Assembly: GCA_016218585.1 (NCBI GenBank)
Contig: JACRDK010000010.1
Location: 68,974 to 132,973 of the forward strand
DNA length: 64,000 nt
DNA from: Candidatus Doudnabacteria bacterium
Lineage (GTDB): Bacteria; Patescibacteriota; Doudnabacteria; UBA920
Direction of reading: 5' to 3'
Numbering within the stretch: position 1 is the stretch's first letter; each line of letters begins with the position of its first letter. Made by a program: the position numbers and the translations under genes. A model generated the notes under the pieces. It searched no databases, was not told the origin of the DNA, and worked only from the letters and a program-made list of their open reading frames with translations. Below are positions 15,122-61,046 of the stretch, in pieces.

Positions 15122-17629
15122 TTATTCAAAATGAATAACCCGGTCTTTGATTTTTTCTTTTAACGCCGGGTATTTTTTTAATTCTAAATCGGTTTCTAAA
15201 ATCGCCCTGGCTTCTTGGCGGGCGGGTTCTATGAGCGAGGTGTACGATAGGTCAAAATATTTAAAGTCCCAGCCGGCTTGTTCTGTCCCATAAAGCTGCC
15301 CGAAACCGCGCTGTTTTAAATCCAATTCCGCCAAAGCAAAACCGTCTTGCGTTTTGGCAAACTGCTGTAAGCGCGTAATTGCATCTTGGTTCTGATTCCC
15401 GCAAAAAAGGTAGCAATAAGACTGATGCTCGGCACGGCCAACGCGCCCGCGGAATTGGTGTAATTGGGAAAGGCCGAATCTTTCCGCTCCTTCAATTACA
15501 ATAACCGAAGCATTTGGAACATCTACCCCAACTTCAACCACCGAAGTGGCAACCAAAATTTGCGTTTTATTGGCCAGGAAGTCAGCCATTGCCGCCTCTT
15601 TCTCAACTCCTTTTAAACGACCGTGCAGAAGGCCGATTTTGAAGCCAGGGAAGATTTTTTGTAAGGCTTCGGCTTCATTGACCGCGGATTTAACCCCTAA
15701 GCGGTCCGATTCTTCCACCAGCGGGGTAATAACAAAAGCTTGTCTTCCGGAAGTTATTTCTTTGGCAATAAATTGGTACGCTCCGGCGCGTCCGGCTTGG
15801 TCAACAACTTTGCTTAGAATGTTTTTTCTGTTAGCGGGTTTGGATTTTATTTGTGACAGGCTAAGCTCGCCAAAGAATGCCAATTTTAAGGTGCGGGGGA
15901 TTGGAGTGGCCGAGAGCGATAGCAAGTGCGGCACTCTCGCAGGCGCAGACTTACGCGGATCTAACGCCGACTTACTCGGACCAGAACGGGCCGTGTCGTA
16001 GATAATTCTTTCTATATGCACATCATCGCTGGCAAAGTTTACTAAGAGTGCAAGTTTATAGTTGGAACTTTTTAGATATGTCCAGGCTTGCCGTTTTTCA
16101 ATATTTCCAATAAATGGCAATGCTTTAAGCTCAATTATAATAGTTTTGTCAATAATAAAATCCGGTTGATATGAACCAATGTTTTTACTTTTGTAGATAA
16201 TTGGCAGATTTTTTTCTCTTTCAAACGCAATGCCTTTTTCTTTAAATTTTATTTCTAATGCATTTTGATAAATTTTTTCTTTATGTCCTAATCCGAGCTC
16301 TTTTTTTACTTCAAAAACACAACTTCTAATTTTATAAGTCAAATCTTCAAAAAGCAGAGCTGCCGGTTCTGCGTCGGTCTGCGGCTCAGTCGGCGTTTGT
16401 CCGTGTATCAGTTGCGCGCGTTGCTCTACGCCCCAGCGGTGCTGCTCGTCTATAATTACCAAAGCTAATTTTTTAAACTTGACGTTTTTTTGCAGCAAGG
16501 CATGCGTGCCAAAATAAACCCCGGGCATACCCTCAGAAATTAGTTTTTTAAACTTGTCTTTTGCAACGGTTTCCCCATTTATAATTGAATGGGTATTGGT
16601 GAGAAGGCAAATTTTTAATTTTAAATTTTTAATTTTAAAATTCTTTAGCGCTGTTTCAAAATGCTGTTTAGCCAGAATTTCCGTGGGAGCCAAAAATACC
16701 GCTTGATACCCTTTGTTTATTGTTTGCAGGGCAGCCATTAAGGCAACCAAAGTTTTGCCGCTGCCGACATCGCCTTCCAGCAGCCTGTTCATTGGCTCCT
16801 TTTTTTCTAAGTCCTGCATAATTTCCCAGGCTGATTTTTTTTGTTCGGGAGTAAGTTCAAACGGCAATCCGGCCAAAAAAGTTTTAGTTAAATCCTGATC
16901 AAACTCAGAAGGGTAGCTTTGCTTTTGCGCCATTTCCATTTTAGTTTTTTGCGCAGCTAGCTGGCTAAAAAAGATTTCTTCAAAGGCCAGGCGTTTTTTT
17001 GCCATGTCCAAACGTTCAACTGAGTCCGGAAAGTGGGACTGGGTAATTGTCTCGCTTATGTTTAAAAGTTTTTGGTTGGAAATAATTTTGTTTGGCAGCT
17101 CATCGGTAATCTTTTCAGCCAATGGTAAAACTTCTTTTATAAAATTGCGTAAAGTTTTAGGGTATAGCCCGGCTTTGAGGTGGTAGACGGGAACCAGGCG
17201 GGAAGTGTGAACAGGGAAGTCGGAAACCTTTTCATAAATTGGGTTGGTGAGCTGGAGCTTGTCTTTATAATAATTTGCGGCTCCGGCTAAAAATATTTCT
17301 TCTCCGGCGCTCAAAGTTTTTGCCAGGTAGGGCTGGTTAAACCAGGTTACCTTTAAAGAACCGGTATCATCAGAAACCAGAGCTTCGGCTAAAGACATCC
17401 TTCCCCTAAAGGAAAAGCGAGAAGAAATGCTTTTTATTTTTACTTTTAAGCTAACATTTTCTTCAGGAACAAGTTCTTTTATAGTTTTGGTTTGGCTAAA
17501 GTCTAAATAACGGAACGGCAGGTGTAAAAGCAAATCTCGCACGTTGAAAATCTCGAGTTTTTTTAAAGCCGCAATTTGCGGCTTGGTAATTTTTGGAAGA
17601 TTTTCAATTGGAGAATCTAAGCCGTCCAT
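15122..17629 (-). CDS. recG: ATP-dependent DNA helicase RecG carrying an in-frame ~160 aa GxxExxY-domain insertion between helicase motifs II and III
   Basis: Contains the wedge/OB region, Walker A GDVGSGKT, DEQH, then the inserted GHKEKIY...FIIDKTIIIELK segment, then SATPIPRTL, the HGRL.. and QLHQFRGRVGR motifs. Confidence 0.85.
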   Translation of the reverse strand: MDGLDSPIENLPKITKPQIAALKKLEIFNVRDLLLHLPFRYLDFSQTKTIKELVPEENVSLKVKIKSISSRFSFRGRMSLAEALVSDDTGSLKVTWFNQPYLAKTLSAGEEIFLAGAANYYKDKLQLTNPIYEKVSDFPVHTSRLVPVYHLKAGLYPKTLRNFIKEVLPLAEKITDELPNKIISNQKLLNISETITQSHFPDSVERLDMAKKRLAFEEIFFSQLAAQKTKMEMAQKQSYPSEFDQDLTKTFLAGLPFELTPEQKKSAWEIMQDLEKKEPMNRLLEGDVGSGKTLVALMAALQTINKGYQAVFLAPTEILAKQHFETALKNFKIKNLKLKICLLTNTHSIINGETVAKDKFKKLISEGMPGVYFGTHALLQKNVKFKKLALVIIDEQHRWGVEQRAQLIHGQTPTEPQTDAEPAALLFEDLTYKIRSCVFEVKKELGLGHKEKIYQNALEIKFKEKGIAFEREKNLPIIYKSKNIGSYQPDFIIDKTIIIELKALPFIGNIEKRQAWTYLKSSNYKLALLVNFASDDVHIERIIYDTARSGPSKSALDPRKSAPARVPHLLSLSATPIPRTLKLAFFGELSLSQIKSKPANRKNILSKVVDQAGRAGAYQFIAKEITSGRQAFVITPLVEESDRLGVKSAVNEAEALQKIFPGFKIGLLHGRLKGVEKEAAMADFLANKTQILVATSVVEVGVDVPNASVIVIEGAERFGLSQLHQFRGRVGRAEHQSYCYLFCGNQNQDAITRLQQFAKTQDGFALAELDLKQRGFGQLYGTEQAGWDFKYFDLSYTSLIEPARQEARAILETDLELKKYPALKEKIKDRVIHFE

Positions 17630-17630
17630 A

Positions 17631-17810
17631 TTATAGAAGTAGAGAAATAAAATAAATTAAAAAGATTATCGGCCAGAAAAATGTGTAGTATAACAGAGTA
17701 ATTATATTTTCCGGGAATGGCAAACTGCCCAAGCGGGCGCTAAAAAATCCGGAGATTCCAATTAACAGGTAGCAGACAATAAAAGTAATAATTTTCTTTT
17801 TCATTTGTGT
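17631..17810 (-). CDS. Possible small 2-TM membrane protein (internal Met of a longer ORF that otherwise overlaps the tRNA)
   Basis: MKKKIITFIVCYLLIGISGFF... lies directly upstream of recG on the same strand. Confidence 0.25.
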   Translation of the reverse strand, partial: TQMKKKIITFIVCYLLIGISGFFSARLGSLPFPENIITLLYYTFFWPIIFLIYFISLLL

Positions 17811-17833
17811 TTTGGTTGTATTTGGGCCGGCGT

Positions 17834-17899
17834 GGTGACTTCGGCTGCCTGCCTGCCGGCAGGCAGGGAATCGAACCAGCTTGCCCGCCGTAGCTTTAG
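17834..17899 (-). pseudogene. tRNA 3'-half remnant (variable/T-arm/acceptor-3'/CCA) with a 20-bp palindrome inserted in the T-stem
   Basis: The minus-sense sequence reads gctgg ttcgatt cc[cctgcctgccggcaggcagg]agc cgaagtc a cca. Removing the palindrome restores a perfect gctgg/ccagc T-stem. Confidence 0.4.
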
Positions 17900-17966
17900 C
17901 GAAGGTGGGCGACCTTTCCCTGATAATGGGGAACGCCCCGCCTGCCGCGTCCTTGTATAAAATTTC

Positions 17967-18041
17967 TGGTGCTTCCAGCAGGAATCGAACCTGCATCCCA
18001 GCCTTCGGAGGGCTATACTCTATCCATTGAGCTATAGAAGC
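17967..18041 (-). tRNA. tRNA-Arg (anticodon CCG)
   Basis: 75-nt cloverleaf gcttcta..ctCCGaa..gcagg ttcgatt cctgc tggaagc a cca, with the CCA encoded. Confidence 0.8.
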
Positions 18042-18051
18042 TTAATTATAT

Positions 18052-18090
18052 GGCATGGCGGGCAGGTCTAATCCACTGAGCTACGAAGCC
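18052..18090 (-). pseudogene. tRNA 5'-half remnant (acceptor + D-arm + start of anticodon stem)
   Basis: ggcttcg ta gctc agtggatta gacc tgcccgcc. No 3' half follows it. Confidence 0.4.
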
Positions 18091-18114
18091 TCTAATTTGT
18101 TTTATAATCTATAT

Positions 18115-18168
18115 CTCAGTCCGCCTCCGGCGGAAGAGCCGCGCTCTATCCATTGAACTATAAGGACC
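18115..18168 (-). pseudogene. tRNA 5'-half remnant followed by a GC hairpin
   Basis: ggtcctt ata gttc aatggata gagc has a D-arm near-identical to tRNA-Arg. It is followed by the hairpin tccgcc-ggag-ggcgga and lacks a T-arm. Confidence 0.35.
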
Positions 18169-18177
18169 AATAATGGA

Positions 18178-18651
18178 TTAGAACTTTAGTTTGTGCATTA
18201 GCCTTTGTATAGGAGTTTCGTCCGTTTCGTGGTGTTCGGGTAAATATTTTAGCAAGAGGTTTCTAACCTGATCGCCATCTTGATTTTCCAATTCCAATAT
18301 TACGGTATTATTAATAAGCGCTGTTGTATGGAAATTTACGGTTCTGTGGCGGTCATTGTTCACAACCCAAAAATACTTCATTTGTTTGTAAGGGAAAAAC
18401 AAGTTATCAAACTTTACCCCCTTGTCATTAAGTTCAATGTTAACAATCTTTGGGGTTTGCAGGGAAAAGAATATTACCAAAACGGCAATTATTCCAAGAG
18501 TTATAGCGGCAAAAATGTCGCTTTCCACAATTATAAAAAAAGCAATGACTAATATGGCAACAGAAATTAAGGTTACGTACCAGCCGGCGCTTTTTGGATA
18601 ATGCCGGAATTCGGCAGCCGTCCAGGAAATTGTTTGATTTTTGTCTGACAT
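18178..18651 (-). CDS. Hypothetical membrane protein (2 TM helices plus PH-like C-terminal region)
   Basis: Hydrophobic helices VTLISVAILVIAFFIIV and ITLGIIAVLVIFF. Confidence 0.45.
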   Translation of the reverse strand: MSDKNQTISWTAAEFRHYPKSAGWYVTLISVAILVIAFFIIVESDIFAAITLGIIAVLVIFFSLQTPKIVNIELNDKGVKFDNLFFPYKQMKYFWVVNNDRHRTVNFHTTALINNTVILELENQDGDQVRNLLLKYLPEHHETDETPIQRLMHKLKF

Positions 18652-19240: not shown

Positions 19241-19331
<91 letters not shown>

Positions 19332-19425: not shown

Positions 19426-19608
19426 ACCCGCATTCTCTTTTTGGGAGAATTGTGGATGTTTGTTTCAAAGCTTCCATACTCTGTCGTCCTGAAGTGGAAG
19501 AAAGAAGAAATTGTGTTGAGTTGTGGATCCCGGTTCAAGTCTGCCTACCGGTAGGCAGGCCCAGGATGACACATGCAATCTTCTTTTCCGCCTCTTCAGA
19601 GCAACAGC

Positions 19609-23360: not shown

Positions 23361-23426
23361 TTCCTTTATTTGCATCTACCCCAGTAGAATATGCTTCGTA
23401 TCTCTACGGGGCAAGCTTCAACCACA
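23361..23426. repeat. Conserved ~66-nt 3'-flank element, copy 1 (second copy at 25717..25782)
   Basis: Near-identical to 25717..25782. Contains the stem-loop ccccagtaga...tctacgggg. Confidence 0.7.
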
Positions 23427-24812
23427 TTATTTTCGTTTTATAAGTTTAACTATTCCCGTGTTAGCGTTAACCTCGACAATATCACCATCTTTAAAGACTT
23501 TGGTGGCGATTTTGGTACCAATAATACAGGGTTTTTTCATTTCTCTGGCAACTATTGCCGCGTGGCAGGTGAGCCCGCCTTCGTCCGTGATTATGGCTTT
23601 GGCAATTCTCATAATTGGCATAAATTCCGGATGGGTCATTGCCGTAATTAAAATGTCACCTTTTTTAAATTTTTGAAACTCGTCTTTGTGATAAATAATT
23701 TTTGCGGTTCCGGTTACAACACCTTTAAATCCAATAGTACCTGAGACAAGTTCGTTATTGTGACTTCTTGCTGTCTGTTCAGCAAGTTTTATACTTTCTT
23801 TTGCCCCCGAATGTATTTTGAATTTACCATTTTTTAACTCTAAGGCATAGCCATTCATTCTTGAGTGGGCCAAGTTTTTTAGCTGGGGTGGAAGATGCCT
23901 TAATCCCGATTTAATTTCTTCAGGCAATAAGTAATTCACTTCTTTTAAGTCCAGGTTCAAACGTTTACCCACCTCAATAAAAAACGATTGCAATATTAAA
24001 TAACAGGGTCTCCGGTAGTCGTCACGCATTTCTTTAAGGTAAGAAAAAACATGGGCAATTTTCATTAGTCGTTTTAATTTAGAATCCCGGGTATCTTTTA
24101 TAATTTTTTTGTAGTTATTTAAACCTGTTTTTTTGTGAAAGTTGTACTCGTAAATTTCTTTTTGTGCTTTTATTGGTGAGATAACTTGTTTTTTTAACGA
24201 GCTTACGTCAAGCGGTTTGTCTATAAAATCATAAATAGGAAGCCAACTGTATTTATAAGCATATTTTTGCAAAGCTTCATTTGTTGGGTTTCCTTTTAAA
24301 CACAGTTTTAAAAACTCCAACCTGGCTAAATTAACTTTAGTTTCTTTATATGGAGTAGAAATGGCTTCTAGCGTTTCTTTGTTTTTAATTTTACTCTCAA
24401 CTTCTTGTATTGGTCCTTCAAGAGCAATAAATGACAACAATTGCCACTCGCCAAATCTTCTTAATCGTTTGTCCAGAAGGCCTACGTCCGCTATTAATTC
24501 GCGGGCGCTTTTAACGGAAAAATTTTGCATTGAAAACTTTTTACAGAAGTTCAGCTCTTGAATAAATACATTTTCATAAGCCTTGGCAAAAATTTGAATG
24601 TCTTGCTTTAGCAAGAAGCTCTGAAATTTTTTAATTACCGCTTGCAGTTCTTTTTCGTCAAAAAAATAGCCGTTTAAATTGCCTTTTGGTACAAAAAGTT
24701 TATTTTTGCAGGCAGCCCATTTGGGGTCCGATTTTAGGAAGGTCAAAAAATAAGATGTTGCAATAAAAGGGGAGTATTTTCTAGCCCAAATTTCCTGCCA
24801 TTTAGTGCTCAT
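23427..24812 (-). CDS. PEP-utilising-enzyme mobile (phosphohistidine swivel) domain protein with a divergent N-terminal domain, paralog A
   Basis: C-terminus GDILITAMTHPEFMP...TDEGGLTCHAAIVAREMKKPCIIGTKIATKVFKDGD (the conserved His lies in TCHAAIV). Confidence 0.75.
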   Translation of the reverse strand: MSTKWQEIWARKYSPFIATSYFLTFLKSDPKWAACKNKLFVPKGNLNGYFFDEKELQAVIKKFQSFLLKQDIQIFAKAYENVFIQELNFCKKFSMQNFSVKSARELIADVGLLDKRLRRFGEWQLLSFIALEGPIQEVESKIKNKETLEAISTPYKETKVNLARLEFLKLCLKGNPTNEALQKYAYKYSWLPIYDFIDKPLDVSSLKKQVISPIKAQKEIYEYNFHKKTGLNNYKKIIKDTRDSKLKRLMKIAHVFSYLKEMRDDYRRPCYLILQSFFIEVGKRLNLDLKEVNYLLPEEIKSGLRHLPPQLKNLAHSRMNGYALELKNGKFKIHSGAKESIKLAEQTARSHNNELVSGTIGFKGVVTGTAKIIYHKDEFQKFKKGDILITAMTHPEFMPIMRIAKAIITDEGGLTCHAAIVAREMKKPCIIGTKIATKVFKDGDIVEVNANTGIVKLIKRK

Positions 24813-24813
24813 T

Positions 24814-25683
24814 TTAGATCCCCTCGCTAATTAATTTGTTTAGTATTTCTTCATTGATTACAATATCCCATTGTTTACCGCCGGTTTTAGCGTGAATTAT
24901 CGCAGACTGTTTTTGACCTTCATTTGTAATCTCAACCTGGAAACCTTGAAGCTCGGCAACGCCTGAGCCACCCACTTCTTTTAAATATTGATCTCTAGTT
25001 TCTGGGCCTTGGGTATCCTCTAAAAGTTTGGCAATAAAACTTTCTCCCACTGTTTGGTGGGTGCCGAAATAGCGCTCTAATTGATTATTGTAGTCTTGGT
25101 ATTTTTCTGGGCTTCTTTCAACTATTTTTTCAAAACTGTTTCCTACTTTCAAGTATTTTTTTAAAATTTTAGCTATGTTGGCTGCGATGCGTGAATAGCT
25201 AAAAGCTTCGGGGTCTTGCAGCTGTTCGGCAAGGCTGTCGCTTTCGTTAACCATAAAATCCATGATTCTTCCGGCCTTAAATGCTGCTAGGTGCTTTTGT
25301 CCAAATTCTGATTGGCGGTCTTGTTGAAAATCAAGCCTAGGATCGCTAATTATTTTTTTTCCATTTTTTATTTCGCTCTCAATAAAAGTCTCTATATCTT
25401 CAAGGCTGGCATTGCTTGGTATTTTTTCGGAGGACGCAAGCAAAACCCTACCAGCTGTTTCCTGGGCTCGCTGGCGGGGACTGCCAAAGGCAATTGATAC
25501 TTCTGGCTGCGGGTTTATTTCATTGCTTCTGTTTGTTGCCATATCTCTACCTTTTTCAGTAAGGCGAATTTCGTTTTCGGGTTTATCAACTTTTTCTTTT
25601 TCGCCGTGCCTAAAGAATTCCAATATGACTTTGGTTTTTGCAACTTCTTTTGGTTCAATATCTTGCCTAGATTTTTCGAACAT
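24814..25683 (-). CDS. Histidine phosphatase superfamily protein (RHG motif)
   Basis: LEFFRHGEKE is the catalytic RHGE signature. A C-terminal GTHQTVGESFI His motif is present. Separated from paralog A by 1 nt. Confidence 0.6.
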   Translation of the reverse strand: MFEKSRQDIEPKEVAKTKVILEFFRHGEKEKVDKPENEIRLTEKGRDMATNRSNEINPQPEVSIAFGSPRQRAQETAGRVLLASSEKIPSNASLEDIETFIESEIKNGKKIISDPRLDFQQDRQSEFGQKHLAAFKAGRIMDFMVNESDSLAEQLQDPEAFSYSRIAANIAKILKKYLKVGNSFEKIVERSPEKYQDYNNQLERYFGTHQTVGESFIAKLLEDTQGPETRDQYLKEVGGSGVAELQGFQVEITNEGQKQSAIIHAKTGGKQWDIVINEEILNKLISEGI

Positions 25684-25782
25684 ATTTTTTATTTAAGTTA
25701 TTTAATTTTTTAATGATTCCTTTATTAGCATCTACCCCAGTAGAATATGCTTCGTATCTCTACGGGGCAAGCTTCAATCACA

Positions 25783-27075
25783 TTACTTTCGTTTTATAAG
25801 TTTTACTATTCCCGTGTTAGCGTTCACTTCAACTAAATCACCGTCTTTGAAGACTTTAGTCGCGATTTTAGTGCCAATGATGCAGGGTTTTTTCATTTCC
25901 CTGGCAACTATTGCCGCGTGGCAGGTGAGCCCGCCTTCGTCGGTAACAAATCCGGCTGCCAATTTCATTGCCGGTAAAAAGTTTGGAGATGTCATATAGG
26001 TAATCAAAATGTCTCCTTTTTTAATTTTGCTCAATTCTTTTACGGTCATTAAAATTTTCGCTTTGCCCGTAATTATGCCGTTTTGAGCAACCCTCCCTTT
26101 TATTTCATTTATTTTTGAGTTATCCTTTTCTAAAAATATCGGCTCATTTAAATAATAGAATTTCTCATTTATGGAAACGCAGGAAAATTCCGGAGGATAA
26201 TATTTTGGCTTTCCCTTTATTAAGCTAGATAGCGTATAATATTTTAAATCTTGATAGGGGATGCCAAATTTTTTTGCAGGAATTTGCAGTAGCGGTTTAG
26301 CCAAGTTCATTATTTCATAATAAACATCCATCCTAAGCATTCTTAAATACACCAGTTCTCTGGCCTCTTTTATTATTTTTTCAAGTGGCTCGGGGATGGC
26401 TGGGTGTTTGTGTTTCTCTTGGGCCAGCGCATGCTTTGCAATATCAATTAGTTCAGAAGCTGAATAAGCCGGCGAAAAACCATCTCTTGCCCTCATCCAA
26501 CCGTATTTTTTTGCCAATACCCCCTTTGATATTCCTCTTTTATAATCCTCAATCATTTGTTCAAGAGAATTATGCTTAACCGGAAAAGAGGCGTCGCCAA
26601 TAAATTTTTCCAGGTCTCCTTTAACAATTTTTGAAACCCGGTTTTTTAAAAGTGGGGTAAAAAAATGTTCCGCTGTGTGAACAGCCCAAACGTAAGTTGT
26701 GATTTCCCTAAGAATGTTATCTAGAAATTTTAATTTATTAACGTTATCTTTAGAAGCGTTTTTCGCAAGCTCGGTAACTTTGGTTACCCATAATTTATGG
26801 GAAGTTTCCAGCCTCTCGGAAATTTCTTTTACTGAATGTGTTTTGAACCATTTCAAGACAATTGGTTTCGCTTTGGCATATGATTTATCAGATTTAAACC
26901 ATTCTCCATTGCTAAATAAAAAGTCGCATTGCCAGCCAGGCAAGCCGATTTTGTTAAAAGCTTTTTTGGTGTTACCGTCTTTGAAGGTGGACATAATAAA
27001 ACCAAAAAATGGGCGCTTTAACCAAGGCTCCCAGCGGTAGGACGAAGTTGCTTTTTTAATTTGTTCAGAAGTCAT
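25783..27075 (-). CDS. PEP-utilising-enzyme mobile domain protein, paralog C
   Basis: The C-terminal 40 aa are identical to paralog A. The N-terminal ~340 aa are unrelated in sequence. Confidence 0.75.
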   Translation of the reverse strand: MTSEQIKKATSSYRWEPWLKRPFFGFIMSTFKDGNTKKAFNKIGLPGWQCDFLFSNGEWFKSDKSYAKAKPIVLKWFKTHSVKEISERLETSHKLWVTKVTELAKNASKDNVNKLKFLDNILREITTYVWAVHTAEHFFTPLLKNRVSKIVKGDLEKFIGDASFPVKHNSLEQMIEDYKRGISKGVLAKKYGWMRARDGFSPAYSASELIDIAKHALAQEKHKHPAIPEPLEKIIKEARELVYLRMLRMDVYYEIMNLAKPLLQIPAKKFGIPYQDLKYYTLSSLIKGKPKYYPPEFSCVSINEKFYYLNEPIFLEKDNSKINEIKGRVAQNGIITGKAKILMTVKELSKIKKGDILITYMTSPNFLPAMKLAAGFVTDEGGLTCHAAIVAREMKKPCIIGTKIATKVFKDGDLVEVNANTGIVKLIKRK

Positions 27076-27078
27076 ATA

Positions 27079-28443
27079 TTAATTAATTTTTTTAACAGTC
27101 CCTTTATTGGCATCTACTTCAATTATATCACCATCTTTAAAGACTTTGGTGGCGATTTTGGTGCCAATAATACAGGGCTTTTTCATCTCTCTGGCAACTA
27201 TTGCCGCGTGGCAGGTGATACCTCCAGAATCAGTTACAAAAGCACCGGCCAAGTTCATCAAAGGCATAAATTCCGGACGTGTCATTGAGGTAACTAATAT
27301 TTCTCCTTTTTTTATCCTTTGAGTTATGGGGTTGTGTATAATTTTTGCTTTGCCAATATATATGCCCGGGTTTGCTGGTAGTCCTTTTATTATACTGGGA
27401 TTTTTTTTATTCTGCGCTGTCAAAATTTTATTCCATTCCTTTTTTGTGATGTCTAAGTAACCGGTTGGCGTCATTATACCTATTCGATTTTTTAGCTTGC
27501 TATAGATTTTGGCCTTTTTGACTAGAGAGATATCTTTAGTCTTCCCTGCTTTAAAAACCTCATCCATGCTTAACCAGCGCATATCATGAAAATTCCAATT
27601 TTTCTTTTCGCACTCAAACCTAAGCCATTTATCCATTAGATCAATTGCAATAAGCTGCAATTTCTTTTTATCGTCCCTAAACGTAACGGCGGTTTTTGCG
27701 AGTTTAGCAAAGAGTTGATATTTTTTGGGAATTTTATCAAGCTTTATAATTTTTTTTATTGCCGATACTTCAAAAGATGTTTTTTTAATGTACGCATCAA
27801 GCCATTTAGGGCTAAGTTTGAAAACGCCAGCGTACGAATTTAGAAACCAGCCGAATTCCAAGTTAAAAGCCGGGTAGATTTTATTTAAATCTCCTTTGTA
27901 TTTTTTTTCTAGCTCAACAAGCTTGAATTGAGCTTGGCTCATAAAAGAAGGGGAGCCTTGGAAAATATAATTTTGAAGTAACTCAAAAAGTTTTGAATCC
28001 GTGAGTTGTATTTTTTTTAGTTCTTCGTCCAGTGCAAAGTCAAAATGAAAATAAATATTAGCGATTTCCGAGTATGATTTTTGAATTTTCGGCCAAAGTT
28101 TAATAAATTGGTCAATATCCGAAGTCGATTGGGCCTTTAGACAAGCTGTTGTTGCCCAATTTATTTCTTTGTAAATTTTATTTATTATATTTGAATATTC
28201 TTTTTTACCAGATTTAGTATCAGTAATAATTTTGTTTCCAACAACACTCATTTTTTTGGTTGGCAGAAATGCTATTAAAAATCCATTTTCAAAATTACAA
28301 AGAAATTTATCCCAAACTACATGGTAGGGCCGTGTTTGTTTCTTTGCAGCCAAGTTGTATAAGGAGGAAAAAAAAGGGTAAGCAAGATATTCCCAGCGAA
28401 TACTTGTTTCCCAATTTTTAGGATTTGTTAGTGAATTATTCAT
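27079..28443 (-). CDS. PEP-utilising-enzyme mobile domain protein, paralog D
   Basis: C-terminus GEILVTSMTRPEFMP...GGITCHAAIVAREMKKPCIIGTKIATKVFKDGD. Confidence 0.75.
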   Translation of the reverse strand: MNNSLTNPKNWETSIRWEYLAYPFFSSLYNLAAKKQTRPYHVVWDKFLCNFENGFLIAFLPTKKMSVVGNKIITDTKSGKKEYSNIINKIYKEINWATTACLKAQSTSDIDQFIKLWPKIQKSYSEIANIYFHFDFALDEELKKIQLTDSKLFELLQNYIFQGSPSFMSQAQFKLVELEKKYKGDLNKIYPAFNLEFGWFLNSYAGVFKLSPKWLDAYIKKTSFEVSAIKKIIKLDKIPKKYQLFAKLAKTAVTFRDDKKKLQLIAIDLMDKWLRFECEKKNWNFHDMRWLSMDEVFKAGKTKDISLVKKAKIYSKLKNRIGIMTPTGYLDITKKEWNKILTAQNKKNPSIIKGLPANPGIYIGKAKIIHNPITQRIKKGEILVTSMTRPEFMPLMNLAGAFVTDSGGITCHAAIVAREMKKPCIIGTKIATKVFKDGDIIEVDANKGTVKKIN

Positions 28444-29897
28444 ATCTTTCTAACAATACCTTTATTTGCGTCTACTTCCACCATATCCCCATCTTTAAAA
28501 ACTTTGGTGGCGATTTTGGTATTAACAATGCAGGGAATGCCGAGTTCCCTGGAAACTACGGCCGCATGAGACATTAATCCACCAACATCTGTAATAATTG
28601 CAGCGGCTTTGCGCATTGCGTGAATGTAGTCAGGCGAGGTCATAGCTGTGATTAAAATTTCTCCAGCTTTCATTTTATTGCTTTCAAGAGCTGAATGCAA
28701 AACTCTGGCCCTGCCTTTTACTATATCAGCCTTGCGGCTAACCACTGTGCCATTTAAGTTTGCAGTGTTTGATTTTGAATAAAGTTCAGAAAAATATTTT
28801 GCCAGTCTCGTTGCTTTTTTTCCGGTATAAAAAGTATAGAAACCTAACTTTGAATAAAAAACATAAAACTTTTTTCTTTGAGCGATAGTTTTTTCTGCAA
28901 CTTTTTTGTCAGTGTCAAATGCCTTCGCCCATTCATCTGCTGAATAATGCAGAATATCTGGCAAAGGGACTTCTAGTCTGTTTGCTAAATGCTTGCTAAG
29001 TATGGTGATTACGCTGGAAGACCGCCAGGCCATACCTTTCCTGTGGTCCTGCAGCCAGATTGATGACGAAAGCGCATGGGCAAGTTTTCGAGTTTGAGAG
29101 GGGATTTTATATTCTTTACTAATCTTCGATTTTTGTTTTTTTATTTTTGATGGGTAGGAAACAATTTCTTTATATTCGTCTTTAATTTTTTTAAGTGAAA
29201 GTTTTCTTATTCTGTTATAAAAGTATTTCTTATTTAGATCTTTTGAACCAAAATAGCTGTTGTTTAGCCAAAACCATTTTTTGGCATAATCTTCTAATAG
29301 CTTATCTAGATGAGCAGATGTCTTAGCTTTTAATTTGCATTCCAAAAGTTCTTTTTGGCTGAGTTGGTTGAAGCTTAATTTTTCCGGCGCTAATAAAATT
29401 TCAAGCAGGGTCTCAACTTTGTCAGCAGGAACCAGCTTGGCTAATGCGCTTTTTAATAACACGGGCGCTCCGTAATTAGCAACCTCAAAAACATCAGTTA
29501 AGCACCAGAATTGATAATATAGTCTATGCCACTCTAAGGCCAAGTTTTTTATTTCATTATTTTTTGAGGCAGAAAAAGAAACTGCGTTAATTTTTTTTAC
29601 TATCCCATTTAATTGTTTTACGTAGGAATAATAAATTTTTTCTATTTTTTTTCTTTTTTCTCCAGGTAAAACCCATTTTTTTATGGAGGCGATGCCATTT
29701 TTTTCAAGGCCGGCCTTTCTCCAATAAAAAGTACCCTTGTCATTTTTAATAATGCCAACCATGCTTTCCCAATAAATACCCCAAGGGCTTTTTATTGTTC
29801 CCGACATTGGGGCAAACCAAAAAGAGGGGTAAATTAGTTTCATATCTATTGGCCCCCATTGTTCAACTTCGTCTTTTGTCGGAAGAATGATTCTCAT
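28440..29897 (-). CDS. PEP-utilising-enzyme mobile domain protein, paralog E
   Basis: C-terminus GEILITAMTSPDY...GGLMSHAAVVSRELGIPCIVNTKIATKVFKDGD. Confidence 0.75.
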   Translation of the reverse strand: MRIILPTKDEVEQWGPIDMKLIYPSFWFAPMSGTIKSPWGIYWESMVGIIKNDKGTFYWRKAGLEKNGIASIKKWVLPGEKRKKIEKIYYSYVKQLNGIVKKINAVSFSASKNNEIKNLALEWHRLYYQFWCLTDVFEVANYGAPVLLKSALAKLVPADKVETLLEILLAPEKLSFNQLSQKELLECKLKAKTSAHLDKLLEDYAKKWFWLNNSYFGSKDLNKKYFYNRIRKLSLKKIKDEYKEIVSYPSKIKKQKSKISKEYKIPSQTRKLAHALSSSIWLQDHRKGMAWRSSSVITILSKHLANRLEVPLPDILHYSADEWAKAFDTDKKVAEKTIAQRKKFYVFYSKLGFYTFYTGKKATRLAKYFSELYSKSNTANLNGTVVSRKADIVKGRARVLHSALESNKMKAGEILITAMTSPDYIHAMRKAAAIITDVGGLMSHAAVVSRELGIPCIVNTKIATKVFKDGDMVEVDANKGIVRKI

Positions 29898-31309
29898 ATT
29901 TTCCTAACGATTCCTTTATTTGCGTCTACTTCCACCATGTCGCCATCTTTTAATACTCGGGTAGCGATTTTGGTGCCAATAATGCACGGCTTATTCATTT
30001 CTCGGGATACAATGCCTGCGTGTGAAGTTACTCCGCCTTCGTCTGTAACAAAACCAGCTGCCTTTTGCATTGCTGGTAAAAACTCAGGCCTTGTCATCGA
30101 GGTTACAAGTATCTCGCCTTTTTTTACTTTTGCAATATCATGATAGCTGGCACATATTTTCACCCGGCCTTTTACAAATCCTTTACAGGCAACCATCCCT
30201 TTTAGTTCCATCAGTCTTTGGTTATTTGGTTTGTTAAGACACTTTTCAATATATGCCGAGTCTTTTTCTGTAAATATAAAGATTTTATTTTTTATAGCGT
30301 AGCTATCGCTTTTAGGGTAACGATTTAGTAGTAGTTTAACAAACTTGGGGCTTGTAAGATTTGGGTATGTTAGCTCCCGTGAGTGAATAAATTTAAAATT
30401 TTCTGTAGGGATATTTACTCTTAAGGCCAACTCTTCTACGACAGGTTCCAGCCAGCTCAGTGTTTCCAATAAGTATTTTTTTCTGTCATCTTGCCAGCTT
30501 GTACATACTTCAACTGTATTTATTACAAATTTTTCTTTTTCTGACAGCCCCAATTCTTTTATTAGCCTAGCTTTACTGCTTTTATTATTTTTTAATTTTT
30601 CAAATGTTGGTAAATATTTTTGTGCTTTAGATTTTTTTACGACATCCTCGTGAGACAAAACTATTGCTTTGACATAACTATTATCTATCCATCCAAATTT
30701 TTTCAAAAATCTTTTTACTAGAATTTTTTGTTTTTCTTTTTTTGCATTTTTTATTTGCCAAAGCATCATCTGTGCCTGGGAAAGGAAGGAGGGCTTAATT
30801 GCTGCGGAAAGAATTTGAAAATTTTCATGGTTGTTTAAACCACGCTTGTCTAGCATCTCTTTAATTTTAAGTTCGCTTACAAATGATATGCCCTCAATAC
30901 AATGAGCGGTTCCCACAGCCATCGATAGTTCCTTGGTAGTTTTTTGGGCCACTCTTACCAGTTCTTTTAATGAAAGTGTTTGCAGATGTTTCGGGTTTTT
31001 TTTGGCCAGCCTTTTCGCTTTTAAATAATCTTGTTTGTGCAAACGTATAAAATATTTTAGCTGTTTTACAGTTTTGTTTTTTTTGTAGTAGCCAAAGCCT
31101 ATGGATGCCAAGTCAGCCTCGTCGTAATAGTATTTTGCTCTCGTCCCATCCATGCGTAAAAAGAAATGAGAGTAGTTAACTCCTGTTATTGGTTTTATCA
31201 TCCAGCCGGTGTTGCTTGCAACAGTATGAAGATATAGAGGTAAACCATTAAAACCCTGAACCATCCACGCCTTATTTTTTAGTATTTCTACAAGCCTCTC
31301 TTTGGTCAT
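29894..31309 (-). CDS. PEP-utilising-enzyme mobile domain protein, paralog F
   Basis: C-terminus GEILVTSMTRPEFLP...GGVTSHAGIVSREMNKPCIIGTKIATRVLKDGD. Confidence 0.75.
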   Translation of the reverse strand: MTKERLVEILKNKAWMVQGFNGLPLYLHTVASNTGWMIKPITGVNYSHFFLRMDGTRAKYYYDEADLASIGFGYYKKNKTVKQLKYFIRLHKQDYLKAKRLAKKNPKHLQTLSLKELVRVAQKTTKELSMAVGTAHCIEGISFVSELKIKEMLDKRGLNNHENFQILSAAIKPSFLSQAQMMLWQIKNAKKEKQKILVKRFLKKFGWIDNSYVKAIVLSHEDVVKKSKAQKYLPTFEKLKNNKSSKARLIKELGLSEKEKFVINTVEVCTSWQDDRKKYLLETLSWLEPVVEELALRVNIPTENFKFIHSRELTYPNLTSPKFVKLLLNRYPKSDSYAIKNKIFIFTEKDSAYIEKCLNKPNNQRLMELKGMVACKGFVKGRVKICASYHDIAKVKKGEILVTSMTRPEFLPAMQKAAGFVTDEGGVTSHAGIVSREMNKPCIIGTKIATRVLKDGDMVEVDANKGIVRKI

Positions 31310-32206: not shown

Positions 32207-32298
32207 TGGCGGAGAGGGAGGGATTCGAACCCTCGAAAGGATTTGACTCCTTTACCGGTTTAGCAAACCAGCGCACTAGGCCTCTATGCGACCTCTCC
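32207..32298 (-). tRNA. tRNA-Ser (anticodon GCT), class II
   Basis: ggagagg...ctggt ttgctaa accgg taaaggagtcaaatccttt cgagg gttcgaatcc ...ctctcc g cca. Confidence 0.8.
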
Positions 32299-32359
32299 AT
32301 ATTTATTATATTTTGTCGTGATTTGGAAGGTAATAAACCCTCGTCCGCCTGAGGCGAAT

Positions 32360-32415
32360 GACTCCTTTACCGGTTTAGCAAACCAAGGCTACTTAGGCCT
32401 CCATGAGACCTCTCC
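32360..32415 (-). pseudogene. Truncated duplicate of tRNA-Ser(GCT): acceptor-5', D-arm, anticodon arm and variable arm, with no T-arm
   Basis: Anticodon/variable-arm segment near-identical to the Ser(GCT) gene, acceptor/D-arm diverged. The T-arm is replaced by the hairpin cgcctgaggcg. Confidence 0.5.
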
Positions 32416-32574
32416 ATATTTATAACCTTGAAACTAAAACCTCTCTGTCGCTCAAAAGCATTCGCGACATCTCCCCTCACCAGGGGAGAAGGGAGCATCT
32501 AATAAAAATGCGCCAGGCACTGAAGCTGAACAACGGCATTGATATAGATTACGAAGTTTATTTTATCATATTGT

Positions 32575-49070: not shown

Positions 49071-49101
49071 CGCCGCCCTTTGTACTATGGGGCGGCGTTT
49101 T
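49071..49101 (+). terminator. Rho-independent terminator of gatCAB
   Basis: gccgccc tttgtactatg gggcggc gtttt. Confidence 0.75.
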
Positions 49102-49122
49102 AGTTTGTTCGCGGCATGATGG

Positions 49123-49320
49123 TTATTTATTGCTGTGTGCCTTGATCAGGCGAGCGTGGTAGCGAAGCGCGAACGCCCCGTTAATCCACTCGCCTATAGG
49201 CCTAGGCAGAAAGCTGGTCAGCTTTTCCAGCTGTGTTAGGGCTTCCCTTGTTTTCTCCAGGTTGGTCATGCTCATTCTATTGAGCCTCCTTATTAGAGAG
49301 TATAAGAAAATAAGTACCAA
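49123..49320 (-). CDS. Small hypothetical protein on the edge of the GC-rich island
   Basis: 65-aa ORF with weak support. Confidence 0.2.
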   Translation of the reverse strand: MVLIFLYSLIRRLNRMSMTNLEKTREALTQLEKLTSFLPRPIGEWINGAFALRYHARLIKAHSNK

Positions 49321-49484
49321 GAGTCAATAAAAAAGCTGGCCAAATAAAAATTGTGCAGTTTTGGACGATCGTCCAAAACTGCACAATTTGTTTAATATAT
49401 TTTTGCGGTATAAATGTGTTATATAAATGATTCACGGGCAGCGGTTTTAAGGCCGCTGCCCGCGTTGGTTGCTTGAGACGCCGA

Positions 49485-49844
49485 TTAGCGCCGTCCGGCC
49501 GTGGTCCGCCGCGCAAGTCGTTCTTTGGCAGAAGGGGCTGGCCTTGTTGGTCGGTGGTGGATTGTCACTGAGGATGTATCCGATTTCTCTTCCTTGAACC
49601 TTGCCTCTACGAGTGTCCTGACAGTCTTTTTGTCTGTTGTTTCGACATGCCACTTGAGAATGAGGACGTCATCCTTTTTAGGTTTAGGCTTGTTATCCTC
49701 CTTCCAAGGACTGCCTTCACCGCTTGTCGTGAATGTTTCGTAGCCGTCCTGGCCGTCAACGGATACGGTAACCCGCAGTTTGTTGTCAATGACTGTAGTA
49801 TACAGCACATACGCTTCAGCAGTAGTTATTTGAATGTCTGACAT
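49485..49844 (-). CDS. Hypothetical protein in the GC-rich island
   Basis: 119-aa ORF with a GGAGGA RBS. A palindromic operator-like site lies upstream. Confidence 0.4.
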   Translation of the reverse strand: MSDIQITTAEAYVLYTTVIDNKLRVTVSVDGQDGYETFTTSGEGSPWKEDNKPKPKKDDVLILKWHVETTDKKTVRTLVEARFKEEKSDTSSVTIHHRPTRPAPSAKERLARRTTAGRR

Positions 49845-49953
49845 TCATCCTCCTGTGTTGTTTATTTTTTGTCCAGACTTTCGTCTGGAAAATCCAGAGA
49901 CAATAGTGTAATAAATTTTTGCAGATAATGCAATAGAAAAAAGCAAAAACAAA

Positions 49954-49987
49954 AGCGCCGACGGTCCATAAAGGAGCCGTCGGCGCT
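49954..49987 (-). terminator. Rho-independent terminator of the secreted-protein gene
   Basis: 11-bp perfect stem agcgccgacgg/ccgtcggcgct. It is followed by a T-run on the minus strand. Confidence 0.7.
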
Positions 49988-50033
49988 AAGTGTGTTCATC
50001 TCCCGCCACAGTTGGCGAGAGGGAGAGGGGAGA

Positions 50034-51005: not shown

Positions 51006-51333
51006 GGTAATCATCTTCCTTGCCGGGGTTGCCGGCGTTTGCCCAATGAGAAACCCTGCAGAAGTTCCCTTGGACAAGCTGAATACCAGGCTTATGGATT
51101 CCGGGTAGCCCGATGTGGCTCCCGGAATGACAAGCTGATATACAATTTGTCCAAGGGAATAATAATCTCCTCTTAAATATCCTCCATAGATATTATTAAG
51201 AACAAAAAATAGGTCTTAAATTTTGCACGATGAGTGCATTATTAAGACCCAATATTATACACCTTTTTGGCTATTTTGTCAAGAGAATAATAAAAAAACA
51301 CGCTTGTTTAAGCGTGTTGAAAATAGGGCAAAA

Positions 51334-60903: not shown

Positions 60904-61046
60904 ATTAAAGATGCAAATTTGCAGATGCACTAATGAAACTAATATCTACAGATGCTAAAAAAACAGAATTAACGGTTATTTGCCTGCCTACCGGCAGGCA
61001 GGTATTATTAGTGCATTAGTATATTAGTATCGCGTATTAGTACACT

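What the first reader, a model, noticed from the sequence alone, without database searches (positions are those of the whole stretch)
17834..18168. tRNA locus with one intact tRNA-Arg(CCG) surrounded by tRNA half-molecules; possible disrupted tRNA whose halves still match
Minus-strand order is: a 5'-half remnant with a hairpin, a second 5' half (GGCTTCG acceptor, D-arm, then CCCGCC), the intact tRNA-Arg, then about 90 nt of GC-rich sequence, and finally a 3' half ending CGAAGTC-A-CCA. That 3' acceptor strand is exactly complementary (one G-U pair) to the GGCTTCG 5' strand located about 200 nt upstream across tRNA-Arg. The 3' half also carries GGCGGG, complementary to the CCCGCC ending the 5' half. 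This may be a tRNA gene torn apart by insertion, a rearranged pseudogene cluster, or conceivably a split or intron-bearing tRNA.
Basis: seen in the sequence. Interest (0 to 1): 0.6.

Follow-up and report, generated by a model that had tools for sequence, protein, structure and literature searches.

The report
Working tRNA nested in broken tRNA
An arginine tRNA gene in a Candidate Phyla Radiation (CPR) bacterium was split when a replacement copy of the same tRNA, flanked by GC-rich inverted repeats, landed inside it; relatives show that this swap recurs at this site, so the "halves" are relics rather than a working split tRNA.

Summary
On the minus strand of 18167..17833 there is one intact tRNA-Arg(CCG), which I call type C. 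It sits inside the pieces of a second tRNA-Arg(CCG) gene, type B. The 5' remnant of a third allele, type A, lies upstream. Relatives with the same gene order carry B or A intact at this site, and the window's B pieces match them 100%.

B is cut by three GC-rich self-complementary insertions:
- a pair of 10-nt inverted repeats enclosing tRNA C, in the D-stem;
- a 30-nt hairpin before the T-stem;
- a 20-nt perfect palindrome, CCTGCCTGCCGGCAGGCAGG, in the T-stem.

B's anticodon loop is now CATTATCA, so a functional split or intron-bearing tRNA-Arg is not supported.

Related genomes show the same junctions. They also show a presence/absence polymorphism of an inserted tRNA cassette, and GIY-YIG nuclease or serine recombinase genes abutting such cassettes. 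The best reading is serial replacement of the tRNA gene by mobile DNA.

Two things remain unexplained. The B remnant is far better conserved than neutral DNA. The palindrome recurs in other tRNA genes, including genes on viral contigs.

The parts
18131..18167 (-). 5' remnant (about positions 1-36) of a type A tRNA-Arg(CCG) allele: GTCCTTATAGTTCAATGGATAGAGCGCGGCTCTTCCG
   Evidence: 97% identical over 30 nt to the intact type A tRNA of L002. The same allele with the GTTC D-stem is intact in L058/L059.
18120..18135 (-). GC hairpin TTCCGCC-GGA-GGCGGA, replacing the 3' side of the type A anticodon arm
   Evidence: The same hairpin (CTTCCGCC-ACA-GGCGGACTG) sits in the type A remnant of L064.
18067..18090 (-). 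Type B tRNA-Arg(CCG), segment 1: acceptor 5' strand, D-stem 5' strand, D-loop and the first two bases of the D-stem 3' strand (positions 1-23)
   Evidence: 100% identical to positions 1-24 of the intact L001 tRNA, E 8e-8.
18057..18066 (-). Left inverted repeat CCTGCCCGCC of the inserted cassette
   Evidence: Pairs with 17946-17937 (8 Watson-Crick pairs, 1 G-T, 1 mismatch). The same junction after GATTAGA, with CCCGCCCGC, is found in L045-47.
18042..18056 (-). AT-rich spacer ATGCCATATAATTAA, with TATAAT ending 5 nt before the tRNA
   Evidence: Read from the sequence. The consensus promoter scan did not call it.
17967..18041 (-). Intact tRNA-Arg(CCG), type C; the presumed working gene
   Evidence: ARAGORN. 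Rfam tRNA 66.2 bits. 97% identical to the type C tRNAs of L033, L045 and L065.
17947..17966 (-). AT-rich spacer on the right side of the cassette
   Evidence: Cannot be aligned with the corresponding spacers of L065, L045 or L033.
17937..17946 (-). Right inverted repeat GGCAGGCGGG of the cassette
   Evidence: Identical in L065 and directly followed by GCGTTCCCC there too. In L045 it is GCGGGCGGG.
17911..17936 (-). Type B segment 2: the rest of the D-stem, the anticodon arm TTCCC/GGGAA with the altered 8-nt loop CATTATCA, and the variable loop
   Evidence: Stems are identical to L001. The loop is CTCCGAA in intact genes. The same CATTATCA is found in L065.
17881..17910 (-). 30-nt GC hairpin insertion: GCCCACC-TTCGCTAAAGCTAC-GGCGGGC-AA
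   Evidence: Absent from L065 and from intact B genes. The core CCTTCGCTRAAGCTWCGGCKGGC recurs after a tRNA in L058/59 and in 5 unrelated viral contigs.
17868..17880 (-). Type B segment 3: T-stem 5' strand, T-loop and the first base of the T-stem 3' strand
   Evidence: 100% identical to L001 positions 50-63.
17848..17867 (.). 20-nt perfect palindrome CCTGCCTGCCGGCAGGCAGG inserted in the T-stem 3' strand
   Evidence: 0 matches expected by chance. Other copies lie at 19540-19559 and 60983-61002. L065 has it at the same position. ARAGORN finds a tRNA in spliced constructs only when it is removed.
17833..17847 (-). Type B segment 4: rest of the T-stem, acceptor 3' strand CGAAGTC, discriminator A, CCA
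   Evidence: 100% identical to L001 positions 63-77.

Best explanation
The locus records repeated replacement of the tRNA-Arg(CCG) gene.

**What is shown.**
- The resident gene (type B, still intact at this site in several relatives) was interrupted in its D-stem, between positions 23 and 24.
- The interrupting piece is about 130 nt. It consists of 10-nt GC-rich inverted repeats enclosing AT-rich spacers and a complete, divergent tRNA-Arg(CCG), type C.
- Type B also carries two further GC-rich hairpin elements and has lost its anticodon. It is therefore a pseudogene in four pieces.
- An older 5' stump of a third allele (type A) lies upstream.
- The inverted repeats around C are the two arms of the same palindrome family that occurs 'empty' as a 20-nt unit in the T-stem.

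**What is inferred.**
- Type C now does the decoding.
- The incoming tRNA arrived with mobile DNA. The likely driver is a GIY-YIG homing-type nuclease or a serine recombinase, such as those that abut equivalent cassettes in relatives.
- That mobile DNA targets the stem-loops of the tRNA gene, and the enzyme gene was later lost from this genome.

Carrying its own tRNA lets such an element destroy the resident gene without killing the host.
For: **The halves belong to one gene.**
- Collinear 100% matches of the B pieces to intact syntenic genes.
- Deleting the three insertions in silico restores a perfect cloverleaf, but with the loop CATTATCA.
- tRNA C is intact.
- CGG codons are used at 3.5 per 1000 in window ORFs.

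**The same junctions occur in relatives.**
- L045-47 have the same left junction: GATTAGA followed by CCCGCCCGC.
- L065 has the same right junction, the same CATTATCA loop and the palindrome at the same T-stem position.

**Insertions of this kind happened repeatedly.**
- A type B cassette with perfect 13-bp inverted repeats sits in the T-loop of an older tRNA in L043/44.
- Type A cassettes interrupt B after G15 in L068 and after the T-stem 5' strand in L066.

**The process is recent or ongoing.** L066 and L067 have a 100% identical neighbour gene at the DNA level but differ by the presence of the type A cassette.

**Candidate enzymes sit next to cassettes.**
- A large serine recombinase abuts the type A tRNA in L068.
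- A GIY-YIG ORF lies directly upstream of tRNA C in L033.
- In L111, a GIY-YIG ORF lies between a palindrome-bearing 5' stump and an intact copy of a tRNA-Asn.
- In L086, a GIY-YIG ORF lies upstream of a tRNA 3' portion.

**The same pattern appears elsewhere in the window.** tRNA-Ser(GCT) is preceded by a 5' stump carrying a GC hairpin.
Against: - No nuclease, integrase or transposase lies next to the locus in the window, so the agent is inferred from relatives.
- The L068 recombinase could have integrated beside the tRNA rather than delivered it.
- No target-site duplication is seen, and no clean crossover core could be defined.
- The B 3' remnant plus the right inverted repeat is about 93% identical between the window and L065. 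Four-fold degenerate sites of the neighbouring gene are only 44% identical, and the spacer next to the remnant cannot be aligned. A neutral relic should have decayed, so the remnant may have a function or be under selection at the level of the mobile element.
- L067 carries the palindrome in an otherwise intact tRNA that still scores 61 bits with the Rfam tRNA model. Hairpin insertion alone may therefore not inactivate a tRNA.
Confidence: 0.7

Rival explanations
1. The broken type B gene is no longer a tRNA, but its pieces have been co-opted as a structured RNA or DNA element. This applies especially to the right inverted repeat, the anticodon-arm hairpin, the T-arm and the palindrome. Possible roles are a 3' processing or termination signal for tRNA C, a leader for the downstream small membrane protein and recG, or a binding or landing site that the mobile cassette needs in order to spread.
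For: - About 93% identity of this block between the window and L065, although synonymous sites are saturated (44% at four-fold sites) and the adjacent spacer cannot be aligned.
- The B remnant of L033 has no substitutions outside one hairpin insertion.
- The region folds into stable helices, with MFE -100 kcal/mol and z -2.2.
Against: - L065 has a mutated T-loop (GAAAGATT), lacks the 30-nt hairpin and lacks the 5' half.
- L045 has a different tRNA remnant in the same place.
- No U-tract terminator is present.
- Inverted-repeat arms in other cassettes decay without compensatory changes.
- The locus clearly moves horizontally, so 'vertical' divergence estimates may not apply.
Confidence: 0.2
2. 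Type B is a functional split or multi-intron tRNA. The GC-rich complementary sequences after the 5' half and before the 3' half would bring the halves together, as in Nanoarchaeum. The hairpins would be excised or tolerated, and the nested tRNA C would be released by RNase P and 3' processing.
For: - The trailer and leader are complementary (10 nt).
- The acceptor strands pair 7/7.
- The cloverleaf is perfect once the three insertions are removed.
- Palindrome-bearing tRNAs in L067 and L100 still score 61 and 50 bits as tRNAs.
- The remnant is conserved.
Against: - The anticodon loop is the 8-nt CATTATCA, with no U33-type geometry and no Arg anticodon.
- Three separate excisions would be needed, two of them inside helices.
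- Inspection of the junction pairing shows no bulge-helix-bulge.
- The organism is bacterial (RecG, RadA, ECF sigma), and no tRNA splicing endonuclease is known there.
- L065 has the 3' part without a 5' half on its short contig.
- ARAGORN with intron options finds nothing.
Confidence: 0.05
3. The arrangement is a metagenome assembly artefact, in which strain variants of the tRNA locus were stitched together.
For: - The window comes from a metagenome-assembled genome.
- One related contig (L066) ends inside a tRNA cassette, and another (L048) ends just as a type A tRNA begins.
Against: - The same junctions appear in independent assemblies from other samples and laboratories: L045, L046 and L047 from three samples, and L065.
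- Shared stretches between the alleles are only 19-30 nt.
Confidence: 0.03

Closest known systems
Disruption of an archaeal tRNA-Thr(GGU) gene by a recombinase-encoding mobile element in a Caldiarchaeum population (Sugahara et al. 2012, PMC3293823; read)
   Same: A 5' fragment of one allele lies upstream of a second copy of the same tRNA. A DNA recombinase element sits between them. The population is heterogeneous at the locus. The authors propose that mobile DNA creates fragmented tRNA genes.
   Different: That case is archaeal, the surviving genes carry introns removed by the archaeal splicing machinery, and the fragment lies 1.8 kb away. Here the organism is bacterial, the new gene sits inside the old one, and GC palindromes flank it. 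The enzyme gene is absent from this genome.
Lak megaphage tRNA-Thr(TGT) 'intron' that may itself encode a tRNA (Devoto et al. 2019, PMC6784885; read)
   Same: One tRNA gene is nested inside another tRNA gene. The insert is nearly identical across cohorts and shows presence/absence variation.
   Different: There the outer tRNA is treated as possibly functional and the insert as an intron. Here the outer gene has lost its anticodon and carries two more insertions, and the inner and outer genes have the same anticodon.
Split tRNA genes of Nanoarchaeum equitans and tri-split tRNA of Caldivirga (from my own knowledge; tri-split mentioned in PMC10714607)
   Same: A 5' half is followed by a GC-rich stretch that is complementary to a stretch preceding the 3' half.
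   Different: Those halves are joined at a bulge-helix-bulge by the archaeal endonuclease and yield canonical tRNAs that have no other gene copy. None of these holds here.
Free-standing GIY-YIG homing endonucleases that drive inheritance of neighbouring genes, such as phage T4 SegB in the tRNA gene cluster (from my own knowledge)
   Same: In relatives (L033, L111, L086) a small GIY-YIG gene lies directly beside the incoming tRNA, and stumps of the displaced copy lie beyond it.
   Different: No cleavage data exist, the window has no such gene, and the cassette is bounded by palindrome arms, which is not a feature of Seg elements.
GC-rich palindromic repeats in AT-rich genomes: REP elements, Rickettsia palindromic elements, yeast mitochondrial GC clusters, and the Neurospora mitochondrial PstI palindromes that flank tRNA genes (from my own knowledge; REP overviews PMC3733652 and PMC3184786 appeared in the search results and were not read)
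   Same: Short GC-rich hairpins, dispersed copies, an association with tRNA genes, and occasional insertion into RNA genes.
   Different: The 20-nt unit here is a perfect palindrome that can enclose a whole tRNA gene between its arms. It sits inside tRNA helices, and it recurs exactly in unrelated contigs of very different GC content.

Membership tests
Split tRNA (Nanoarchaeum type) | Complementary GC-rich trailer after the 5' half and leader before the 3' half | tested here: met
   CCTGCCCGCC (18066-18057) pairs with GGCAGGCGGG (17946-17937): 8 Watson-Crick pairs, 1 G-U and 1 mismatch.
Split tRNA (Nanoarchaeum type) | Bulge-helix-bulge at the exon/leader junctions | tested here: not met
   Pairing the two arms by hand gives a continuous helix with no 3-nt bulges around the junctions A23|C and G|G24 (sequence).
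Split tRNA (Nanoarchaeum type) | Joined halves give a canonical tRNA with a 7-nt anticodon loop | tested here: not met
   Two further insertions must be removed, and the loop is the 8-nt CATTATCA. ARAGORN calls it tRNA-?(ttat).
Split tRNA (Nanoarchaeum type) | tRNA splicing endonuclease encoded by the genome | not testable with these tools
   Only 64 kb of the genome is available, and no such domain appeared among the 18 window ORFs scanned. The organism is bacterial.
Bacterial group I intron in a tRNA | Group I catalytic core in the anticodon loop | tested here: not met
   No Intron_gpI match at E up to 10 in 17600-18400. The same search does find one in the tRNA-Asn of L111 at 86 bits.
tRNA pseudogene left by mobile-DNA insertion | Collinear fragments homologous to an intact orthologous gene at the same site | tested here: met
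   100% matches to L001 positions 1-24, 50-63 and 63-77. Intact genes are present in L001, L003, L055, L060, L063 and L064.
tRNA pseudogene left by mobile-DNA insertion | Loss of features needed for function | tested here: met
   The anticodon is lost and the D-stem and T-stem are interrupted. ARAGORN and Rfam do not detect the gene.
tRNA pseudogene left by mobile-DNA insertion | Recombinase or nuclease gene next to the insertion | tested here: inconclusive
   None in the window. A serine recombinase in L068 and GIY-YIG genes in L033, L111 and L086 abut equivalent cassettes.
REP/MITE-like palindromic repeat | Several dispersed copies of the same short palindrome | tested here: met
   3 loci in the window with 0 expected. 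Copies in L001, L065 and L066/67. 57 copies in viral contigs. The flanks are unrelated.
REP/MITE-like palindromic repeat | Target-site duplication or an associated transposase (RAYT or DDE) | tested here: inconclusive
   No duplication at the tRNA sites. Several viral copies lie between 7-14-nt direct repeats. No transposase was looked for beyond the scanned ORFs.
Permuted tmRNA | Match to the family model | tested here: not met
   13.3 bits against a gathering score of 47, E 2.4. The match is driven by the T-arm of tRNA C.

The most novel reading that the evidence does not exclude
The GC-rich hairpins, above all the 20-nt palindrome, could be a new class of intervening sequence in bacterial and phage tRNA genes. 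They would be tolerated in the tRNA or removed from it. Palindrome-bearing tRNAs such as L067 (Arg) and L100 (Met) would then be functional. In this window the conserved B pieces, held together by the complementary arms and the acceptor stem, would still make an RNA with a role. In effect this would be a bacterial counterpart of archaeal split or multi-intron tRNAs, created by a mobile palindrome.
Probability: 0.08. Interest if true: 0.9.

Novelty: new variant of a known kind. Interest (0 to 1): 0.6.

Why it matters
How tRNA genes come to be fragmented, intron-bearing or split is an old question, and it has mostly been argued from archaea. This locus and its relatives give a bacterial (CPR) series of intermediate states at one site. 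The series includes intact genes, a gene with a single palindrome, genes interrupted by a cassette carrying a replacement tRNA, polymorphic insertions within one population, and decayed stumps. The series suggests that mobile DNA can carry a spare copy of the gene it destroys.

The locus also exposes a short perfect palindrome that appears inside tRNA helices in unrelated genomes. If that palindrome is mobile or processed, it would affect tRNA gene finding and genome annotation in uncultured bacteria and phages.

Tried and rejected
**Attempts to find a joint tRNA**
- ARAGORN with intron options and lowered thresholds on the raw locus gave only tRNA-Arg(CCG), plus spurious low-score calls.
- About 100,000 spliced constructs gave tRNA calls only when the palindrome was removed, with no consistent anticodon.
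- My first reading of the 5' half as tRNA-Gly(GCC), from the loop 'ATGCCAT', was dropped once the orthologs showed that ATGCC is cassette spacer.

**Weak matches dismissed**
- Rfam at E up to 10 gave no intron. The permuted-tmRNA match (13 bits) and the Plastid-ycf2 match are by-products of tRNA C.
- 'CAAGGAC' after tRNA C looked like the 3' acceptor strand of the type A remnant. It aligns with cassette spacer in L045, so it is chance.
- The hairpin pattern TTCCGCCNNNGGCGGACTG has 20 viral hits, roughly what I estimate chance alone would give, so it was not used.

**Genome-wide and promoter checks**
- A genome-wide family of GC hairpins was not found: only 3 strong GC hairpins in 64 kb.
- The consensus promoter and terminator scan called nothing at the locus.

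**Searches for the alleles and the palindrome elsewhere**
- Type A/C and type B tRNA sequences have no matches in viral contigs.
- The palindrome has no exact copy in cultured phage or plasmid collections.
- The palindrome string does not occur in the literature library.
- Palindrome flanks share no larger conserved element.
- Literature searches found no description of hairpin-bearing or nested tRNAs in CPR bacteria.

Full report
**What is there**

Read on the minus strand, the stretch 18167..17833 contains a single detectable tRNA. It is tRNA-Arg(CCG) at 18041-17967 (ARAGORN; Rfam tRNA 66.2 bits). A permissive Rfam search of 17600-18400 adds nothing credible.

The neighbouring genes are bacterial: RecG, RadA, an ECF sigma factor and DUF5667/DUF5666 proteins. 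The adjacent 157-aa protein is on record from a Candidatus Doudnabacteria metagenome-assembled genome. The region 17800-17950 is 58-66% GC in a genome of about 40% GC.

I fetched loci with the same gene order (157-aa gene, tRNA site, small membrane protein, recG) from genome and metagenome collections. Several carry an intact tRNA-Arg(CCG) at this exact site. Its sequence in L001 and L064 is GGCTTCGTAGCTCAGTGGATTAGAGCGTTCCCCTCCGAAGGGAAAGGCCGCTGGTTCGATTCCAGCCGAAGTCACCA. I call this allele type B.

The window matches type B at 100% in three collinear blocks:
- positions 1-24 at 18090-18067;
- positions 50-63 at 17880-17867;
- positions 63-77 at 17847-17833.

Between these blocks, 17936-17911 holds the same anticodon stem (TTCCC/GGGAA) and variable loop. 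The two 'halves' are therefore parts of one former gene.

The first remnant (18167-18131) is the 5' part of a different allele, type A. Type A is intact in L002 and L058/59. The intact gene in the window is a third allele, type C. It is also found in L033, L045-47 and L065.

**Anatomy of the broken gene (coordinates)**

Type B is cut three times, each time by a self-complementary GC-rich insert.
1. Between positions 23 and 24, in the D-stem. The insert reads CCTGCCCGCC, a 15-nt AT-rich spacer containing TATAAT, tRNA C, a 20-nt AT-rich spacer, then GGCAGGCGGG.
2. Between the variable loop and the T-stem. The insert is the 30-nt hairpin GCCCACC-TTCGCTAAAGCTAC-GGCGGGC-AA.
3. In the 3' strand of the T-stem. 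The insert is the perfect palindrome CCTGCCTGCCGGCAGGCAGG.

Deleting all three in silico restores a perfect cloverleaf. Its anticodon loop, however, is the 8-nt CATTATCA instead of CTCCGAA. In an exhaustive set of spliced constructs, ARAGORN reported tRNAs only when the palindrome was removed.

The arms around tRNA C belong to the same family as the 20-nt palindrome. They differ from it at 2 of 20 positions. In L045 the arms are CCCGCCCGC/GCGGGCGGG, which is the palindrome with both T-A pairs changed to C-G.

**Why this is not a working split or intron tRNA**

- The anticodon is gone.
- Three excisions would be needed, two of them inside helices.
- The junctions form a plain helix, with no bulge-helix-bulge.
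- No group I core is present.
- The organism is bacterial.
- L065 keeps the 3' block with no 5' half on its short contig.
- A complete isoacceptor sits in the middle, and CGG codons are in use at 3.5 per 1000.

**Evidence that the site is repeatedly overwritten by mobile DNA**

*Shared junctions.* L045-47 show GGCTTCGTAGCTCAG, then a 110-nt inverted-repeat element, then GATTAGA, then CCCGCCCGC..tRNA C..GCGGGCGGG, and finally the 3' part of yet another allele. The junction after GATTAGA is the one seen in the window. L065 shares the window's right junction, the CATTATCA loop and the palindrome at the same T-stem position. It lacks the 30-nt hairpin.

*Other nested insertions.* In L043/44 a type B gene flanked by perfect 13-bp inverted repeats (CCCCGTCACTTAT/ATAAGTGACGGGG) lies in the T-loop of an older remnant. 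In L068 a type A gene follows CTTGCCCCGTCAC directly after G15 of a type B stump. It is abutted by a 496-aa large serine recombinase (Resolvase plus Recombinase domains) and by foreign GC-rich DNA.

*A live polymorphism.* L066 and L067 have a neighbouring gene that is 100% identical at the DNA level. L067 has an otherwise intact type B gene. L066 has the same gene interrupted after the T-stem 5' strand by a type A cassette. This indicates recent or ongoing insertion.

*GIY-YIG nuclease genes sit beside such cassettes.*
- L033: directly upstream of tRNA C.
- L111, a viral contig: between a palindrome-bearing 5' stump of tRNA-Asn and an intact tRNA-Asn(GTT). That intact gene itself carries a group I intron with an HNH gene.
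- L086: upstream of a tRNA 3' portion that has two palindromes in its T-arm.

*Other points.* L004 and L049-54 have no tRNA at the site. Inside the window, tRNA-Ser(GCT) is also preceded by a 5' stump that carries a GC hairpin and is truncated in the T-loop.

**Most likely mechanism**

These points are shown:
- a complete replacement tRNA lies inside the resident gene;
- similar insertions occurred repeatedly at D-loop, D-stem, anticodon-loop and T-loop positions;
- at least one such insertion is polymorphic;
- nuclease or recombinase genes lie next to cassettes in relatives.

These points are inferred:
- A mobile unit breaks or recombines the resident tRNA gene at its stem-loops and supplies its own tRNA. 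The unit would be a nuclease or recombinase gene plus a tRNA, bounded by palindrome arms.
- The enzyme gene is later lost, leaving the compact cassette seen here.
- An alternative order is that the palindrome inserts first and the tRNA is later captured at its centre. The match between the cassette arms and the solo palindrome fits this order too.

I could not define a crossover core or a target duplication, so the enzymology is open.

**Two things I cannot explain**

*The remnant is too well conserved.* The right arm plus the type B 3' remnant is about 93% identical between the window and L065. Four-fold degenerate sites of the adjacent gene are 44% identical, which is saturated. The 20-24-nt spacer right next to the remnant cannot be aligned. 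The type A and type B stumps in the window are also nearly identical to functional genes of distant relatives. Three explanations are possible:
- the remnants have a function;
- they are kept by selection acting on the mobile element;
- the locus is exchanged horizontally in pieces.

Pairwise identities of the neighbour protein place L064 (intact B, no C) within the C-bearing group. This favours horizontal exchange, but it rests on one small protein.

*The palindrome is widely dispersed.* The exact 20-nt palindrome, allowing R/Y at one mirrored pair, occurs 57 times in 48 stretches of viral contigs. Their GC content ranges from 33% to 70%, and the flanks are unrelated. Four of these copies are inside tRNA genes or fragments, where about one would be expected.
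- One sits at the D-loop/D-stem boundary, the position it occupies in L067.
- One sits in the variable region of a tRNA-Met that still scores 50 bits.

No exact copy exists in the cultured phage or plasmid collections, and the string is not in the literature library. By my own rough estimate, some hits in high-GC contigs could be chance or ordinary terminator hairpins. The 14 copies in low-GC contigs and the copies inside tRNAs cannot. The core of the 30-nt hairpin shows a similar dispersed pattern.

**Comparison with what is known**

- The nearest described cases are the recombinase-linked disruption of tRNA-Thr in a Caldiarchaeum population (PMC3293823) and the 'enigmatic' Lak megaphage tRNA intron that may encode a tRNA (PMC6784885).
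- The layout mimics Nanoarchaeum split tRNAs, with complementary GC-rich trailer and leader. It fails the defining tests: no bulge-helix-bulge, no canonical product, and the gene is not the only copy.
- From my own knowledge, the linkage to GIY-YIG genes recalls free-standing homing endonucleases such as T4 SegB. The GC palindromes recall REP elements, Rickettsia palindromic elements and the Neurospora mitochondrial palindromes that flank tRNA genes.
- I found no description of nested replacement by the same isoacceptor, or of this palindrome, in CPR bacteria. The literature library is incomplete, so this is not proof of novelty.

**Verdict**

The finding is real. The 'torn apart by insertion' reading is right and the 'split tRNA' reading is not. 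The locus is a relic of serial tRNA gene replacement by mobile DNA.

It is more interesting than an ordinary pseudogene cluster for three reasons: the replacement gene is nested, the stumps are conserved without explanation, and the palindrome recurs in tRNA genes. I rate it a new variant of a known kind, with interest 0.6.

Noticed in passing
window 15122-17629 (-): RecG is 835 aa, with a PD-(D/E)XK nuclease domain (PF13366, residues 429-541) inserted between the DEAD and Helicase_C domains. L001 has the same length. All other relatives have 684-699 aa without the insert. This could be an in-frame nuclease insertion of mobile origin.
   Followed up: partly
window 32359-32423 (-), next to tRNA-Ser(GCT) 32207-32298: A 5' partial copy of tRNA-Ser(GCT), 91% identical over 65 nt, lies upstream of the intact gene. 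It is truncated in the T-loop and has a GC hairpin (TTCGCC-TCA-GGCGGA) in place of the variable arm. This is the same 'stump before intact copy' pattern.
   Followed up: partly
window 19540-19559 and 60983-61002; L001 4283-4302: These are further copies of the 20-nt palindrome. One lies inside a longer hairpin between the DUF5667-family gene and tRNA-Ser(TGA). One lies between mreC and mreD. One lies after recG in L001, with flanks resembling the 19540 copy.
   Followed up: partly
window 49100-51100: About 2 kb at 55-62% GC. The longest ORFs (347 and 119 aa) have no Pfam match, and there are no credible Rfam matches. A perfect 42-nt palindrome lies at 49348-49389 and a strong hairpin at 49433-49464.
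   Followed up: partly
tRNA-Ser(TGA): window 19242-19331 and relatives L001-L067: The tRNA-Ser(TGA) beside the 157-aa gene changes orientation between close relatives. In L002 it is followed by GC hairpins and a GIY-YIG gene, so this second tRNA site also looks unstable.
   Followed up: no
L111 823-1464 (viral contig IMGVR_UViG_3300035537_000177): tRNA-Asn(GTT) with a 566-nt group I intron (Rfam 86 bits) that contains an HNH-motif ORF. It is preceded by a GIY-YIG gene and by a palindrome-bearing stump of the same tRNA.
   Followed up: partly
L117-L121 and L058 3093-3115: The core of the window's 30-nt hairpin (CCTTCGCTRAAGCTWCGGCKGGC) recurs in five unrelated viral contigs with GC from 48% to 64%. 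Twice it lies directly after the CCA end of a tRNA, and each copy is closed by a different local stem.
   Followed up: partly
window 23400-31300 (-): A tandem array of about six paralogous genes (289-485 aa) that share 72-84% identical DNA segments.
   Followed up: no
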